DNA of 64,000 nt, from assembly GCA_963727485.1 (NCBI GenBank), contig CAVSGM010000002.1, positions 672,001 through 736,000 of the forward strand. The letters run 5' to 3'. Shown here piece after piece: positions 47,801-59,800 of the stretch. The position numbers are program-made. The DNA is from an uncultured delta proteobacterium (GTDB lineage: Bacteria; Myxococcota; Myxococcia; SLRQ01). Position 1 is the stretch's first letter, and each line of letters starts with the position of its first letter.

Positions 47801-50800
47801 GGTCACCACCTGGCCGTCGACCACCAGCTCCCGATCCCGGACCCAGTGGGCGATCTGCCGGTTGAGGTGGGGGTGCGGGTCCTCCACGGTCTGGACCAGC
47901 TCGTCGGTGAGGTCGATCTGCGAGGCGTTCATGTAGAGGGCGAGCACCGCCGGGAAGCGCCGGGCCAGCGGTAGCACCGCACGGGCGAGGCGCCGGGTCC
48001 CGCGCATGGGCACCCGGCCGATGATCCCGGGGCTGACGGCGAGCAGCTTGAGCAGCGGGTGCACCCGGTCCCAGCGCAGCGGCCCGCCGAGGCTCACCAG
48101 CGACGCCAGGTCGTGGTCTTCGCGGTGGCGCGCGAGCCAGGCGTAGAGGAGGGTCGCCCCGAGGCTGGCGCCGATGGCGTGGAGCTGGTCCCGGCGGCTC
48201 CCGGTCTCGTTGCGCACCAGCTCCAGGACCCGGGGAAGGTCCACCAGGGCCAGCTCCCGGAAGCCGATCTGCCGGCTCCCGCTCCGGCGCCGCGAGCCGC
48301 CCTGCCCCCGGAGGTTCGAGGTCCACACCTCGAAGCCACGGCCGGCGAGGTACTCCACCAGCGACGCGCCCCGGGGGTGGAAGCCGAGGACGAAGCTGTT
48401 CATCCCGTAGCCGGGGACGATGAGGATCGGCGGGAGCTCGGGATCGAAGGCGGCGGGATCCTGGTGGCGCGCGACGTCGAGGTCCCAGCCCTGGCCGTTG
48501 TCGGGGGCGAAGGTGCGGGTGTCCATGCCGGCGTCCATCATCGCACACCCCCCACGCCGACCTCCCCTGCTTTCGCGCGGACCCGGAAGCGCCGGAGGGG
48601 CCTTCCCCTCCGAGCGCCAGGTGAGGCGCGGCCGGCACGTCGTCCGCGGCGACAAGGAGCTCCTGGAGAAGCTCGGCCGCAACGCCCCCTGCCCCTGCGG
48701 GTCCTGGCGCCGCTTTCGAGCGCTGCTGCCTGCGCTCCAGCCGCTTCGACGGGGCGCTGCGCGACGACTCCCACCGGGAGCGGTGAACGCGGCCGGCGGG
48801 CGCGCGGGGGGGGGCCGCAGCAGCTCGACCCCGGCGCCAGCCTCGTCCCGGTCCCCGCCAACCGGCTGCCCCCCCCGGCGCCCTTGCGGCCTCGGGCCCG
48901 GGGGGCATCCTGCCCTGCGGAGGTGACCCCCATGCGCGCGACCTGGCACGGCAAGACCCTCGCCGAGAGCGACGACACCGTCGTGGTCGAGGGCAACCAC
49001 TACTTCCCCCGGGACGCGGTGGACCCGGCGGTCCTCCGCCCGAGCGAGCACCACAGCGTCTGCCCCTGGAAGGGCCAGGCGAGCTACTTCGACGTGGTGG
49101 TGGACGGCGAGGCCAACGAGAGCGCCTGCTGGACCTACGAGGATCCCAAGCCCGCCGCCGACGAGATCCGCGGCCGGGTGGCCTTCTGGAAGGGCGTGGT
49201 CGTCGCGCCCTGAGGCGGCCCCGCCTAGACCTTGAGCCGCAGCGCCCCGGGGACGATGCGCACGGTCACCGGCAGGCGCCCGGGCTGCTCGCCGTCGAGG
49301 TCGAGGAGCACCGTCTCCTCGCTCGTCGCCTCGACCACCTTCGCCCGGAGCGTGCGGGTGCGCGGGTCGTCGACGTGGCTGCCGTCGTAGACCATCTTCG
49401 ACTTGAGGGCGAAGTCGGTGAGGGTGTAGCCGCGCCAGATGGTCACGTCGAAGAGGCCGTCGTCCATCTCGGCCTTGGGCGCCACCTGCATCCCCCCGCC
49501 GAAGAACCGGCCGTTGCACACCGCGACGCTGGTGACCGCGACGGTCTCCGGCTCGCCGCCGTCGAAGCGCAGGGTGACGGTCTGGTCCCGGTAGCCGAGC
49601 AGCGCCTTCACCGAGCCCCACATGAACGAGACCCGGCCCCCGAGCGCCTTGCTCGAGTGGTTGACCTTGTCGACGACCTGCCCGCCGATGCCAAACGAGG
49701 TGATGTTGATGAACGGCCGCAGGTGCTCGGCGCCGTCGTGGCCGACATAGGTCACCAGGCCCGCGTCCACGCGCTTGGTCTCCCGGCCGGCCAGCCGCGC
49801 GCAGGCCCCGGCGATCTCGGTGGAGACGCCCACGGTGCGCCGGAGGTCGCCGCCGGTCCCCTGGGGGATGAGGCCGAGGACCGCGTCGGGGTTGACCGGC
49901 GTCTCCCCGTCGAAGAAGCCGCCGACCACCTCGTTGAAGGTGCCGTCGCCGCCGACCCCGACGATCATCTCGTAGCCCTTGCCCAGCGCCTCCCGGGCGA
50001 GCTCGGTGGCGTGCTCCGGGCCCTTGGTGAAGGCGTGGTCGAAGGCGCCCACCGCGGCGCGGACCTGCTCGGCGATGCGGTGGAAGCGCTTGCCGGTGGC
50101 CCCGCCGGCGGCCTTGGGGTTGACCACCAGGAAGGTCTTGAAGTGCTCGGCGCTCACGGGATCTCCATGCCCAGGTAGGCGGCGACGACGTCCACGAGGT
50201 CCAGGGCGCGGGCGCCCGCGTCCCGGAACCGACCCTCGCACGTGGGGCAGGCGGTGACGATGATCTTCTCGCCGGCGGGCGCCTCCCCGGGGATCCCCGA
50301 GGAGGTGCCCGTGAGGTCGGCGACCCGGGCCCGGGTGATGGCGTCGGCGGTCTGGGGGCTGGTGTCCGGGAGGAGCCCGCCGCCGCCGGAGCAGTAGCCG
50401 TGCGCGCCCATGAACGGCGCCGCCTCGCCCAGGGGCCGCTTCGAGAGGTGGCGCACCAGCTCCCGGGGCGCCTCGGTCTTCCCCAGGTGCCGGCCGAGGT
50501 AGCAGGGGTCGTGGTAGACGAGGTCGAGATCCAGCGGCGGCGCCGTGGGCGCGTGGCGCAGGGCCGGGCGCAGCAGGTCCACCAGGTGCCCCACCGTCTT
50601 CGCCGGGGGGTCGATGCCGGCGATCTCGGGATAGGCCACCTGCAGGGTCCAGGCGCACTCCGGGGAGCCGGTGAACACCGCCCGGGCCCCGTCGAGGGCG
50701 CCTTCGACCTTGCGCGCCTGGGCCCGGAAGCCCTCGAGGTCGCCTGCGGCCAGCAGCGGGTAGCCGCAGCACTGGACCTCGCCGGCGTAGACGACCAGGT

Positions 50801-56800: not shown

Positions 56801-59800
56801 CTGGGTGATGACGCCGTAGTTGGACATCTTGCGATCGAGGACCAGGTGCACGCCCTTGCCCGGGCGCATCTTCACCGTGACCCCGTTTCGCGCCGCGAAG
56901 CGCGGGGACCAGGCGCCGGTGGCGTTGAACACCATCCGGGCCTCGAGGCTGGTGTCGGCGCCGGTGTCGCGGTCCCGGGCGCGCACCCCGGTGACCCGCC
57001 CGCCGCCGTCGCGCAGGAGCGCCACCACCTCGGTATAGGTGTGGATCCGGGCCCCGTGGGCGGCGGCGTCGAGGGCGTTGAGGGTGACCAGGCGGTGGGC
57101 GTCGATGCCCCACTCGTCGATGGTCACCGCCCCGAGGAGGTCGTCCCGGAGGCCGGGCTCCAGGTCCTTGGCCTCGGCGGCGGTGAGGCGCGTGGAGGGC
57201 TTGCCGCGCTTGAGCGGCTGGTACCGGTCGTAGAGGCCGACGTAGCTCTCGGCGCCGTAGAGGTAGGCGCGATCGGCGACGGCGCTGCCCTCCCCGCCCT
57301 TCACCACCGGGTAGATGAAGGGGATGCGATCGAGGAGGTGCGGGGCGATCTGCTGGATGAACCCCGAGTCGCGGCTGGAGGCCTTGGTCACCGAGGGATC
57401 GGCGAGGAGGTAGCGCAGCCCCCCGTGGATCATCGACGAGGAGTTGCCGCTGGCGCCGACGGCGAGGTCGTCGCGCTCGAGGAGGGCCACCGAGAGCCCA
57501 CGCATCGCCGCGTCCCGGGCGATGCCCGTGCCGTTGACGCCTCCACCGATGACGATGAGGTCGAGCACGGGCGCCAGCTCAGCCGATGTTCTTCACGTGC
57601 AGCTCGGCGAGCTGCTTGGGGTCGACCTCGCTGGGGGCCCCGGTCATCTGATCGACGGCCTTCTGGGTCTTGGGGAAGGCGATGGTGTCCCGGATGGAGG
57701 TGGCCCCGGTGAGGAGCATGACGATCCGGTCCATGCCCATGGCGATGCCCCCGTGGGGCGGGGCGCCGTAGCGGAAGGCGTCGAGGAGGAAGCCGAACTT
57801 GGCCTGCTGGTCTTCCTCGGAGAGCCCCAGGGCGTCGAAGACCTGGGCCTGCACCGCCCGGTCGTGGATCCGGATGGAGCCGCCGCCGATCTCGGAGCCG
57901 TTCATGGCCAGGTCGTAGGCCCGGGCCCGGCACCGGCCGGGATCGCTGGTGAGGTACGGCAGGTCCTCGGCGCGCGGCGAGGTGAACGGGTGGTGGAGGC
58001 TCACCCAGCGCTTGGCCTCGTCGTCGTACTCGAAGAGGGGGAAGTCGGTGACCCACACGAACGAGAGCTCGTCCTCGGGGATGAGGCCCAGGCGGTTGCC
58101 GAGCCAGAGGCGCAGGGCGCCCAGCGACGCGGTGACCACCCGCGCGGTGTCGGCGACGAACATCAGGATGTCCCCGGGCTCGGCGTCGAGGGCCTGGCCC
58201 AGCCGGGCGATGACGTCCTCACCGAGGAACTTCACGATGGGGCCCTGCCACCCGTCGGGGTTCACCCGGATCCAGGCGAGGCCCTTGGCCCCGTAGGGGG
58301 CGATCTCCTTGGGGAGGTTGTCGAGCTCGGAGCGGGTCAGGGTGGCGCCCTTGGCGTTGATCGCCTTGACGACGTTGCCCTTCTCCACCGTCTCCTTGAA
58401 GACCCGGAAGCCGCTGGCGGCGACGATCTCCGAGACGTCGACCAGCGGCAGGTCGAAGCGCAGGTCGGGCTTGTCGGAGCCGTAGCGACCCATGGCCTCG
58501 TCGTAGGTCATCCGGCGCATGGGGCGCGTCGGGGCCGGCTTGCCGTCGGCCTCGAGGATCGCCGCCATCATCCCCTCGACGACCTCGTAGATGTCCTCCT
58601 CACAGACGAAGGACAGCTCCATGTCGATCTGGGTGAACTCGGGCTGGCGATCGGCCCGGAGGTCCTCGTCGCGGAAGCACCGGGTGATCTGGAAGTAGCG
58701 ATCGAAGCCCGAGACCATGAACAGCTGCTTGAAGAGCTGGGGCGACTGGGGCAGCGCGAAGTACCGCCCGGGGTTCACCCGGCTGGGGACCAGGTAGTCG
58801 CGGGCCCCCTCGGGGGTGCTCTTGGTGAGGATCGGGGTCTCGAGCTCGAGGAAGCGGCGATCGGTGAGGTAGCTGCGCACCGCCTGGTTCATCCGGCTGC
58901 GGCGGATGAGGACGTCCTGGAGGTGCGGGCGCCGCAGATCGAGGTAGCGGTAGCGCAGGCGGATGTCCTCGCCGGTGGCGATCCGGTCCTCGATCTGGAA
59001 GGGCGGGGTGTCGGCGCGGTTGAAGATGGTGAGCGCGTCGACGATCACCTCGATCTCGCCGGTGGGCATCTTCGGGTTGATCTGGTCGCCCCGGGAGCGG
59101 ACCCGGCCCTGGACCCCGATCACGAACTCGCCGCGGAGCTCGCCGGCGAGGGCGTGGGCGGTCTCGTTCTCGGTGGGGTCGAACACGACCTGGGTGAGGC
59201 CGTCGCGATCCCTAAGATCCACGAACACGCAGCCCCCGTGATCCCGTCGGTGGTGGACCCACCCGAAGAGGACCACGGACTGCCCGATGTCCCCGGCGCG
59301 GAGTGCTCCGCAGCCGTGGGTACGCTTCAGATCTGTAATGAACTCGGCCACGGGGCGGCGAATATCGGGGCGTTGTCGCAGTGTGTCAAGCGAGGTCGGC
59401 GTCGGCCCCGGCGCCGTCGTCAGCCGGGCCGGGACGGGCCCGCCAGGGGGCGATCACCAGGGTCGCGGCGCCCCCCACGGCGAAGTCCCCATCGGCCCGC
59501 GGCGGGGCCTTCCGTCGCAAACTCGCGGTGGCCCCGGGGGAAAAGGACCGATTTCACGCCATTTGCGGGCCGGGGTGGATGCGCGTGAGGCTTGACAGGT
59601 GGGTGACAGACACCTATGGTCCGCCGCCAAGCCGGGCTGGGGATTGCCCCGGAGCCGGTTACGGACAAGTTTCTGGCCGTTTCCTCGCAGAGGAGGGGAG
59701 AGTCATGCACTCGTATCGTCGCGTCGCGGCCGTGGCCATCGCCGCGGGCCTGCTCGCCACCGCCGGCTGCTGGAACCCGGCGCCTGAGAAGTATCCGTCC

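What a model noticed while it worked through the whole genome (the two positions that open the first line are those of the whole stretch)
49225..57568. AGPS-like flavoprotein wired as a GlcDEF-type dehydrogenase with a lipid kinase and GlpAB: oxygen-independent ether-lipi [...]
One operon holds GlpA, GlpB, a ferredoxin, an alkyl-DHAP-synthase-like flavoprotein, a second FAD subunit, an Fe-S/CCG subunit and a lipid kinase. It likely phosphorylates alkylglycerols from prey or own membranes, oxidises them and cleaves the ether with electrons passed to quinone, without O2. This would be a bacterial ether-lipid catabolic route distinct from the O2-dependent AGMO.
Evidence so far: g01743 is 29% identical to AGPS over 490 aa, with HAY and HHHG motifs; the kinase is 33% identical to a long-chain-base kinase. 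The pairs are near in 3 of 4 order genomes, and DAGK is near FAD_binding_4 in 4,838 genomes. 16 of 61 phylum genomes match. In 12 loci the Fe-S/CCG subunit is present in 10, the kinase in 8, the second FAD subunit in 7 (2 more have an AGPS-like hit there) and GlpA in 1. Searches 178 and 182 listed nothing relevant.
(Added by a program. Inside this text positions count along the whole contig: contig position 672,001 is position 1 of the stretch shown here. "Call 12" and the like, gene names such as g00115 and contig names such as C1 are that model's own, and its searches are not shown. The text may have been shortened before it was handed on; [...] marks where a part breaks off. The agent that wrote the report below was given it as the finding of a first reader that could run no searches.)

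Follow-up and report, generated by a model that had tools for sequence, protein, structure and literature searches.

The report
Iron-sulfur-wired AGPS cousin in glycerolipid operon
A conserved myxobacterial operon pairs a cousin of the ether-lipid-making enzyme AGPS with a degenerate copy of itself and an iron-sulfur protein (all three fused into one chain in some relatives), and this likely enzyme complex would probably break down, rather than build, glycerol-ether lipids without needing oxygen, a reaction nobody has tested.

Summary
The genes are real: seven genes with 4-nt stop/start overlaps behind aspS. glpB has a one-base frameshift, probably an assembly error. The flavoprotein is AGPS-family, not GlcD (438 vs 223-243 bits; R419/Y578/HHH equivalents kept). 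The 'GlcE' gene is more likely a degenerate AGPS copy.

The AGPS-like protein, its copy and the Fe-S/CCG protein act as one unit. 63 of 64 genomes with the CCG orthologue carry the AGPS-like one. The three genes are missing as a block in some relatives and are fused into one chain in 28 protein clusters (one fusion folds at pTM 0.93). That points to a dehydrogenase, not a redox-neutral synthase.

A lipid substrate is favoured by the linked lipid kinase and a long amphipathic insert. Breakdown is favoured by genomes that have the module but no FAR. Ether cleavage itself, the quinone acceptor, prey origin and a special role for GlpAB are unproven. [quoted passage not shown]

A kinase + G3PDH + AGPS-like cluster without Fe-S is published (P. 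aeruginosa PA3026-23), with no function assigned. This scan noted the Fe-S-linked module before in other genomes. Verdict: new variant; ether cleavage about 0.4.

The parts
59361..59389 (-). sigma-70-like promoter (TTGACA-17-GATATT) just upstream of aspS; the only minus-strand match in 11 kb
   Evidence: 2 sites found against 0.1 expected; no minus-strand terminator-like site in 48800-59800
57579..59351 (-). aspS-like gene (aspartyl-tRNA synthetase; label from sequence, recalled, not scanned), likely first gene of the transcript; 10-nt gap to glpA
   Evidence: upstream of the cassette in many relatives
55907..57568 (-). glpA-type FAD glycerol-3-phosphate dehydrogenase with BFD-like [2Fe-2S] domain, 553 aa; the genome's only DAO_C gene
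54611..55910 (-). glpB-like flavoprotein, split by a +1 frameshift near 54886-54890 (probably an assembly error)
54099..54614 (-). 171-aa 2x[4Fe-4S] protein with a hydrophobic/basic N-terminal segment; stays with glpAB in some genomes and with the AGPS-like gene in others
52507..54102 (-). AGPS-family flavoprotein, 531 aa; H137, R255, Y433 and H470-472 kept; S140 where AGPS has Asp; 68-aa insert at 259-326
51365..52510 (-). degenerate second FAD-oxidase module (FAD2), 381 aa; lacks the GxGS loop, GHFP and HHH; keeps APRxAxGPD
   Evidence: fused to the AGPS-like protein in 18 of 60 loci
50154..51368 (-). Fe-S/CCG protein, 404 aa; 8 ferredoxin cysteines invariant in 31 of 31 sequences, CCG cysteines variable
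49225..50157 (-). YegS/Rv2252/BmrU-family lipid kinase, 310 aa

Best explanation
The AGPS-like, FAD2 and Fe-S/CCG genes, which occur, vanish and fuse together, likely encode one flavin/iron-sulfur dehydrogenase that would act on a lipid-bearing 1-O-substituted dihydroxyacetone phosphate, most likely 1-O-alkyl-DHAP. Proposed route, every enzymatic step inferred: (1) the YegS-type kinase phosphorylates a 1-monoalkylglycerol left after lipases strip the esters; (2) the cell's G3P dehydrogenase (GlpAB here, GlpD in other lineages) oxidises C2; (3) the AGPS-like site forms the flavin-N5 adduct at C1 as AGPS does (recalled mechanism) and releases the fatty alcohol, and water, not a second lipid, quenches the iminium, giving hydroxypyruvaldehyde phosphate and reduced FAD; (4) the two [4Fe-4S] clusters of the CCG subunit reoxidise the flavin and pass the electrons on, presumably to the respiratory chain. 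FAD2 is likely a catalytically dead structural partner. The likely place behind a housekeeping aspS promoter, and the lack of a recurring transporter or regulator among the neighbours, fit turnover of membrane lipids better than an inducible feeding pathway.
For: AGPS family: profile 438 bits vs AGPS, 243 vs D-lactate dehydrogenase, 223 vs 'glycolate oxidase'. The first 12 Foldseek ranks are AGPS. R255 36/36, Y433 35/36, HHH 36/36; these map to R419 and Y578 through PDB mutants 4bc7 and 4bca.

One unit: 63 of 64 CCG-orthologue genomes have the AGPS-like orthologue, and 63 of 70 the reverse. The AGPS-like gene lies directly upstream in 50 of 60 CCG-centred loci. All 4 Planctomycetota genomes tested with a lone AGPS-like gene hold the CCG orthologue elsewhere (the fifth genome tested, a myxobacterial MAG, did not). 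glpA-glpB-fdx-dagk without the three-gene block occurs in 6 of 20 GlpA loci. One-chain fusions of all three occur in 3 of 60 loci and in 28 of 120 listed proteins. A fusion folds at pLDDT 91, pTM 0.93.

Lipid: kinase adjacent in 36 of 60 loci and 33 of 56 loci. The insert is 45-107 aa with amphipathic stretches, against 41 in biosynthetic AGPS and 15-22 in relatives linked to sugar ABC transporters or sugar kinases.

Breakdown: no FAR partner in the operon. Five genomes with the module show no PF07993 match, and a sixth (G110) by tally. Family f2 has FAR in 30 of 30 genomes but this orthologue in 3 of 30. Kinase + C2-dehydrogenase + AGPS-like recurs with importers and LacI/TetR regulators in cultured bacteria. 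GlpD replaces GlpAB at the same position in 2 loci.
Against: No substrate, product or electron acceptor was measured. The AGPS catalytic residues are also kept in relatives beside sugar transporters, so they do not show a lipid or an ether. The insert could be a partner interface rather than a membrane anchor. GlpK (140 of 151 genomes) and a G3P dehydrogenase (133 of 151) are near-universal, so glpAB needs no special substrate; 40 of 70 module genomes lack this GlpA type and 22 of 52 GlpA-type genomes lack the module. The kinase persists beside glpAB-fdx where the module is missing. Streptomyces and Pseudomonas versions carry the triad without an adjacent Fe-S gene. G009 (99% complete) keeps the AGPS-like gene and FAD2 without the CCG orthologue. 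CCG cysteines are patchy, and the 404-aa protein lacks the membrane region through which EtfD reaches menaquinone, so the quinone link is unsupported. The genome has an AGMO-like protein that could cleave the same bond with O2. The fusion model had no controls.
Confidence: 0.45

Rival explanations
1. The complex is a dehydrogenase for a small soluble DHAP-type compound (DHAP itself, or a short-chain glycerol ether), and the lipid kinase is only an operon neighbour.
For: Relatives at 35-39% identity with the same catalytic residues sit with FGGY kinases, glycerol dehydrogenase and sugar ABC transporters. The kinase survives without the module. gap-pgk-tpi-like genes lie near the cassette in L045 and L091 (labels read from sequence). 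Earlier scan notes on archaeal modules favoured this reading (unchecked).
Against: Those relatives have a 15-22-aa insert, while this family has 45-107. No GlpK lies near GlpA in 20 loci. The only kinase tied to this cassette is the lipid-type one.
Confidence: 0.17
2. Same redox chemistry, but on another lipid: 1-acyl-DHAP from monoacylglycerol or lysolipid turnover, or a glyceryl thioether from lipoprotein turnover.
For: Acyl-DHAP is the natural AGPS substrate, and carboxylate or thiolate are better leaving groups than alkoxide (general chemistry). An Lnt-like gene follows the kinase in 16 of the 72 loci mapped. The P. aeruginosa cluster is co-activated with a phospholipase C.
Against: Esters are removed more cheaply by lipases, and lyso-PA can be reacylated directly, so a three-step redox route is hard to motivate. 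The Lnt link is confined to some lineages and may be plain synteny.
Confidence: 0.15
3. A biosynthetic or salvage ether-lipid route: kinase and G3P dehydrogenase make acyl-DHAP from monoacylglycerol, the AGPS-like enzyme swaps in a fatty alcohol, and the Fe-S part only reactivates reduced flavin or drives a reductive step.
For: The full AGPS catalytic set is kept. Several residues (W368, R372, H421, S423, H424) match Dictyostelium AGPS. Most phylum genomes have a FAR domain (117 of 151). The PA3026 paper proposed this direction, untested.
Against: No FAR or acyltransferase is linked. The module is present in genomes without PF07993 and missing from most of family f2. FAR-linked AGPS form a separate, well-supported group with Asp at the S140 position. 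The genome already has an elb-like operon. A redox-neutral enzyme has no need of a fused electron wire.
Confidence: 0.15
4. An ordinary GlcDEF-type 2-hydroxyacid dehydrogenase, or the CCG protein is simply GlpC of GlpABC.
For: Same Pfam layout as GlcDEF. The best NCBIfam label for the flavoprotein is GlcD (159 bits), and GlpC is among the best labels for the CCG protein (64 bits); both are far below cut-off.
Against: The GEHG and HAGDGNLH motifs seen in GlcD-type rows are replaced by HHHG and HAYEEGCSIY. The CCG gene follows and fuses with the AGPS-like gene, not with glpAB. The genome has a separate GlcD-type gene.
Confidence: 0.04

Closest known systems
Alkyl-dihydroxyacetonephosphate synthase (AGPS; PDB 2uuu, 4bby) and M. 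xanthus MXAN_1676
   Same: Fold, FAD-binding and cap domains, catalytic His/Arg/Tyr/HHH positions, long insert in the cap.
   Different: Asp of GH(E/D)PDS is Ser in 36 of 36. No FAR-acyltransferase partner. Carries a degenerate copy and an Fe-S/CCG subunit, sometimes fused. Separate group in the tree.
P. aeruginosa PA3026-PA3023 cluster (GliR regulon; PMC8151288) and the Streptomyces glpD-tetR-AGPS-like-yegS cluster
   Same: AGPS-like flavoprotein + G3P dehydrogenase + YegS-type lipid kinase; function unassigned.
   Different: No adjacent Fe-S/CCG or FAD2 gene, a dedicated regulator, GlpD rather than GlpAB. The Streptomyces protein is about 39% identical and groups with FAR-linked AGPS (SH-aLRT 87). 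PA3026 itself was not aligned here.
GlcDEF glycolate dehydrogenase and YdiJ-type FAD/Fe-S fusions
   Same: FAD-oxidase + second FAD module + 2x[4Fe-4S]/CCG architecture.
   Different: No 2-hydroxyacid metal-binding motifs. The second module scores best on AGPS (177 vs 157 bits for D-LDH). No GlcF hit for the CCG protein.
EtfD/FadF/HdrBC-type CCG electron-transfer proteins (PDB 9ojn; PMC13083937)
   Same: Best solved relative of the CCG subunit (130 bits); two cubane motifs plus CCG domains.
   Different: No membrane/heme region; CCG ligands only partly kept.
Alkylglycerol monooxygenase (AGMO)
   Same: Would cleave the same 1-O-alkyl bond.
   Different: Unrelated family; described as the only known enzyme for this breakdown (PMC7911779, abstract passage). 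It gives fatty aldehyde plus the glycerol part, whereas this route would give fatty alcohol plus an oxidised C3 phosphate.

Membership tests
AGPS (EC 2.5.1.26) | VAO/PCMH fold closest to AGPS | tested here: met
AGPS (EC 2.5.1.26) | Arg419, Tyr578 and His615-617 equivalents | tested here: met
   R255, Y433, H470-472; His numbering recalled
AGPS (EC 2.5.1.26) | Asp in the GH(E/D)PDS loop, as in both solved AGPS and FAR-linked myxobacterial AGPS | tested here: not met
   Ser140 in 36 of 36 and 28 of 28 fusions
AGPS (EC 2.5.1.26) | Genetic link to FAR/GNPAT supplying acyl-DHAP and fatty alcohol | tested here: not met
   none in the cassette loci; present in L029, L033, L034
AGPS (EC 2.5.1.26) | Redox-neutral acyl/alkyl exchange activity | not testable with these tools
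   needs assay
GlcDEF / D-2-hydroxyacid dehydrogenases | FAD oxidase + second FAD module + Fe-S/CCG layout | tested here: met
GlcDEF / D-2-hydroxyacid dehydrogenases | GEHG and HxGDGNLH metal/substrate motifs | tested here: not met
GlpABC anaerobic G3P dehydrogenase | GlpA with BFD domain and GlpB | tested here: inconclusive
   best families are GlpA and GlpB, but below equivalog cut-offs; glpB is frameshifted in this assembly
GlpABC anaerobic G3P dehydrogenase | GlpC (2x[4Fe-4S] + CCG) travelling with glpAB | tested here: not met
   the CCG gene tracks the AGPS-like gene; glpAB is followed by a 171-aa ferredoxin or by neither
YegS/Rv2252/BmrU lipid kinases | TIGR00147 over cut-off; GGDGT and catalytic motifs | tested here: met
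   135.7 bits vs cut-off 118.65
YegS/Rv2252/BmrU lipid kinases | Alkylglycerol as substrate | not testable with these tools
   needs assay; the animal alkylglycerol kinase is ACAD10, a different protein (abstract)

The most novel reading that the evidence does not exclude
The AGPS-like/FAD2/CCG complex is an oxygen-independent ether-lipid-cleaving dehydrogenase: AGPS chemistry run as an oxidation, turning 1-O-alkyl-DHAP into fatty alcohol and hydroxypyruvaldehyde phosphate. It would be the first alternative to AGMO. Together with its Fe-S-free cousins, it would make the broad bacterial 'AGPS homologue' family mainly glycerol-ether degraders, from which ether-lipid synthesis was one offshoot.
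Probability: 0.35. Interest if true: 0.85.

Novelty: new variant of a known kind. Interest (0 to 1): 0.62.

Why it matters
AGMO is described as the only enzyme known to break down alkylglycerols (PMC7911779), so how bacteria recycle ether lipids without O2 is open. A single-chain natural fusion (about 1,140 aa) makes the question testable with one gene. There is also a practical point whatever the substrate. Metagenome surveys count 'Agps' homologues at 30% identity or more as a sign of ether-lipid synthesis (PMC11868695: 120 of 347 Myxococcota MAGs). The window protein is 30% identical to a FAR-linked AGPS, and many relatives are labelled 'alkyldihydroxyacetonephosphate synthase', so such counts may include this probably non-synthetic family.

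Tried and rejected

No RNA holder was listed; this says nothing about expression. Run contigs were short and none spans the operon; small shares were not used to name a habitat.

Tree of 54 rows: only the quick tree finished. FAD2 sits on long branches between GlcD and AGPS-like rows, so its origin rests on motifs and profile scores. Two outgroup rows (L015, L016) were probably wrong ORFs and were ignored.

An HMM count of Lnt in the 60 CCG-centred loci returned nothing (probably a script fault), so the Lnt count comes only. My gene caller failed on low-GC loci (L057, L077, L087 and parts of others), and tblastn missed a divergent FAD2 in L077 (found), so the counts are lower bounds.

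Literature searches listed no paper on an Fe-S-linked AGPS homologue or on bacterial O2-independent alkylglycerol cleavage. The library lacks most subscription journals. The AGPS mechanism paper was not held, so tunnel residues were not compared and the mechanism is recalled. Supplements were not opened; the datasets of PMC13012113 and Table S3 of PMC8151288 may list these homologues.

Rejected: GlcDEF membership (motifs absent); CCG as GlpC (it tracks the AGPS-like gene); the long-chain-base-kinase label; a real glpB pseudogene (relatives intact, one contig lacks the base; not excluded outright); phylogenetic coupling of GlpAB to the module (30 shared, 40 and 22 unshared).

Full report
1. The locus. 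The window is C2:672001-736000 of a 5.55-Mb, 93% complete genome. Named relatives of its genes are mostly Myxococcota MAGs. On the minus strand lie aspS (57579-59351), glpA (55907-57568), glpB (54611-55910), a 171-aa ferredoxin (54099-54614), the AGPS-like gene (52507-54102), a second FAD gene 'FAD2' (51365-52510), an Fe-S/CCG gene (50154-51368) and a lipid kinase (49225-50157). Each of the last seven overlaps the next by 4 nt, and glpA starts 10 nt after aspS. One sigma-70-like site precedes aspS (2 sites found in 11 kb, 0.1 expected), and no minus-strand terminator-like site follows. One transcript from a housekeeping promoter is therefore likely; it is inferred, and no RNA run was listed. 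glpB has a +1 frameshift near 54886-54890. All 14 related glpB hits are single frames, and one contig of run X1, depth 3.6, lacks a base at 54886. The elbD-like gene elsewhere also changes frame between its parts. An assembly error is the simplest reading.

2. The flavoprotein belongs to the AGPS family. phmmer ranks the two solved AGPS first (201 and 180 bits, next 132). A 44-sequence profile gives 438 bits against 243 for D-lactate dehydrogenase and 223 for the entry named glycolate oxidase. The AlphaFold model (pLDDT 88, pTM 0.89) hits AGPS chains first. The PDB mutants Arg419His and Tyr578Phe map those residues to R255 and Y433. In 36 cassette-type sequences R255, H137 and H470-472 are invariant and Y433 is 35 of 36; all are kept in 28 of 28 fusions except H137 (27). 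The GlcD-type GEHG and HAGDGNLH motifs are absent. It is not a plain AGPS either. The Asp of GH(E/D)PDS is Ser in 36 of 36, and the three FAR-acyltransferase-linked AGPS in my loci (L029, L033, L034) are about 29% identical and form their own group with GlpD/SDR-linked types (SH-aLRT 99; quick tree).

3. FAD2 has lost the GxGS loop, GHFP and the histidines, but keeps APRxAxGPD; the longest members still show HHRG. Its profile scores best on AGPS (177 vs 157 bits). I read it as a degenerate duplicate. The tree cannot place it.

4. The three genes are one unit. From the AGPS side, 56 loci (57 found, one weak Kytococcus match dropped) held FAD2 in 45, CCG in 40, the kinase in 33, the ferredoxin in 13, glpB in 10 and a G3P dehydrogenase in 12; many loci are cut by contig ends, and the ten GlpAB loci look closely related. 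From the CCG side I searched 151 phylum genomes and fetched all 60 new full-length hits at E <= 9e-55, a cut chosen after seeing the list. The AGPS-like gene lay just upstream in 50, 3 were at contig ends and 7 lacked it. Six of those seven genomes have the orthologue elsewhere. Genome-wide, 63 of 64 CCG genomes have the AGPS-like orthologue and 63 of 70 the reverse (two FAR-linked hits removed first). Kin are not independent. Exceptions: G009 and G025 have no CCG orthologue, and the G025 enzyme has lost its catalytic residues (row L028). Four of five further genomes with a lone AGPS-like gene hold the CCG orthologue elsewhere. Of 20 GlpA loci that I picked from the GlpA-type hits, 6 read glpA-glpB-ferredoxin-kinase without the three-gene block.

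5. Natural fusions. AGPS-like and FAD2 share one frame in 18 of the 60 loci, and all three parts share one frame in 3 (L185, L187, L190). Of 120 listed homologues of one fusion, 28 carry the AGPS-like and CCG parts in one chain, and 91 carry AGPS-like plus a second FAD module. The L187 fusion folds at pLDDT 91 and pTM 0.93 over 1,139 residues, and no solved chain covers more than TM 0.38 of it. This suggests a defined arrangement, but the parts are tethered and there were no controls. A redox-neutral synthase has no need of such a partner, so net electron transfer is the likely function (inference). The eight ferredoxin cysteines are invariant in 31 of 31 while the CCG cysteines vary. The closest solved relative is EtfD, which reaches menaquinone through a membrane region (PMC13083937, passages) that this 404-aa protein lacks. 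The acceptor is unknown.

6. Substrate. The kinase is YegS/Rv2252/BmrU-type, directly downstream in 36 of 60 loci and near in 9 more. The cap insert after R255 is 52-107 aa in 36 members, mostly with amphipathic stretches, and 45 in the L187 fusion. It is 41 in biosynthetic AGPS, 23-35 in three GlpD- or lipid-kinase-linked proteins and one SDR-linked one, 14 in this genome's SDR-linked paralogue, and 15-22 in relatives beside sugar kinases or ABC transporters. I opened 5 of 26 plasmid hits. Four show a kinase plus a C2-oxidising dehydrogenase beside the AGPS-like gene: Microbacterium glpK-glpD, Shinella and Roseibium xylulokinase-like kinase + iron alcohol/glycerol dehydrogenase + ABC + LacI, and Streptomyces glpD-tetR-AGPS-like-yegS. 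Mesorhizobium shows kinase, LacI and ABC. The family therefore seems to act on 1-substituted DHAP-type ketose phosphates, often in uptake-and-breakdown clusters (inference). The same finding means that the catalytic residues do not show a lipid or an ether.

7. Direction. No FAR or acyltransferase lies in the cassette loci. PF07993 at E <= 1e-30 is missing from G045, G046, G054, G069 and G075, and by tally from G110, which all have the module; family f2 has it in 30 of 30 genomes but this orthologue in 3 of 30. Other FAR types were not searched. This genome has an elb-like operon, the main ether-lipid route of M. xanthus (PMC9131029, passages). Synthesis is therefore the weaker reading.

8. 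GlpAB. GlpA is the only DAO_C gene in the genome, and a normal GlpK lies elsewhere. Across 151 genomes GlpK is in 140 and a G3P dehydrogenase in 133, mostly single copy. The GlpA type is shared with the module in 30 genomes, absent from 40 and present alone in 22. So GlpAB is first the ordinary G3P dehydrogenase. In favour of coupling: the full order exists in 3 of 4 same-family genomes, GlpA lies upstream of the module in 4 of 60 loci from three families, GlpD takes the same place in L050 and L052, and its neighbouring kinase is the lipid kinase, never GlpK, in 20 loci.

9. Oxygen. The genome has two COX1-family genes and a fatty-acid-hydroxylase-family protein that scores 0.92 to eukaryotic AGMO clusters. 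The proposed chemistry needs no O2, but nothing here ties it to anaerobic life or to prey.

10. Mechanism and odds. Shown: gene order, family membership, residues, co-occurrence, block loss, fusions. Inferred: complex formation, net oxidation, lipid substrate, breakdown. Recalled, not from a call: AGPS forms a flavin-N5 adduct and iminium at C1 of acyl-DHAP (the cyanoethyl adduct structure 4bc9 is listed), and such iminium ions can hydrolyse to an aldehyde plus reduced flavin, as in nitroalkane oxidase. Odds: alkyl-ether cleavage 0.45, small soluble substrate 0.17, acyl or thioether lipid 0.15, synthesis 0.15, 2-hydroxyacid dehydrogenase or GlpC 0.04. The full novel case, with its claim about the wider family, is 0.35.

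11. What is known. P. aeruginosa PA3026-PA3023 (oxidoreductase, GlpD, FGGY kinase, YegS; co-activated with a phospholipase C; no growth phenotype) was proposed to make alkylglycerone phosphate, untested (PMC8151288, passages). MXAN_1676 is the FAR-GNPAT-linked AGPS (bioRxiv 10.1101/2025.10.10.681575, passages; PMC13012113, passages and section 11, which built no AGPS tree). AGMO is called the only known enzyme of alkylglycerol breakdown (PMC7911779, passages). ACAD10 is the animal alkylglycerol kinase (PMC13596139, abstract). PMC11868695 (passages) counts Agps homologues as synthesis markers. Searches listed no paper on an Fe-S-linked AGPS homologue; subscription papers and supplements were not seen. 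Earlier notes of this scan describe the same kind of module in other bacteria and in Asgard archaea; a word search that included 'fusion' found none.

12. Verdict. A real, widespread and untested enzyme architecture: a new variant built from known families. The evidence for a redox complex is good; the evidence for ether cleavage is circumstantial. Interest 0.62.

Noticed in passing
window 54886-54890 (-): +1 frameshift in glpB; relatives are intact and one public contig lacks the base, so probably an assembly error.
   Followed up: yes
L196, L199, L210, L212 (also L195, L197): GlpAB followed by a small 2x[4Fe-4S] protein and the lipid kinase, with no GlpC-type gene detected: a possible 'GlpC-less' G3P dehydrogenase that uses a short ferredoxin.
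   Followed up: partly
L035:9232-11656 (G000:C3): Second AGPS-like gene (31%) with a 14-aa insert, followed by a short-chain reductase and facing gpsA; it groups with GlpD-linked types. Function unknown.
   Followed up: partly
L101:4072-12910 (G000:C1): elbA-E-like ether-lipid operon; ElbC carries a lactate-racemase N-terminal domain (Lar_N, E 1.6e-31), and elbD changes frame between its FAR and later parts in this assembly.
   Followed up: partly
L102:7925-9157 (G000:C9): AGMO-like fatty acid hydroxylase family protein (0.92 to eukaryotic AGMO clusters).
   Followed up: partly
L069:13806-16457 and 15 other loci: Lnt-like (apolipoprotein N-acyltransferase) gene directly after the lipid kinase in some lineages, often followed by an O-methyltransferase.
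   Followed up: partly
L233:8851-18921, L235:8851-17752: Alphaproteobacterial LacI + AGPS-like + xylulokinase-like kinase + sugar ABC + glycerol dehydrogenase + SDR cluster in cultured strains (Shinella, Roseibium): a candidate pathway for a soluble glycerol ether, easy to test.
   Followed up: partly
L028:8611-10206 (G025): AGPS-like orthologue that has lost HHH, the Tyr and the His in a genome that also lacks the CCG orthologue.
   Followed up: partly
window 46241-46348 and 46633-47364: 9-bp tandem repeat (about 12 units) upstream of an IS200-like (Y1_Tnp) transposase gene that is flanked by three copies of a 20-nt motif (46543, 47444, 47467); REP/RAYT-like layout, recalled and not tested.
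   Followed up: no
window 59705-61192 and 61372-63492 (+): Two tandem paralogous proteins with lipoprotein-like N-termini (74% identical over 266 aa) and no Pfam match, behind the divergent sigma-70-like site at 59592-59620.
   Followed up: partly
L104:255-2688 (G000:C3): Rubrerythrin + Fe-S/CCG (called as two ORFs) + DUF3501 cluster near a GlcD-type gene.
   Followed up: no
window 47525-48541 (-), 48902-49213 (+): Alpha/beta hydrolase (weak PHA-synthase similarity) and DUF427 gene next to the operon; the hydrolase was not found beside the cassette in 72 related loci.
   Followed up: partly
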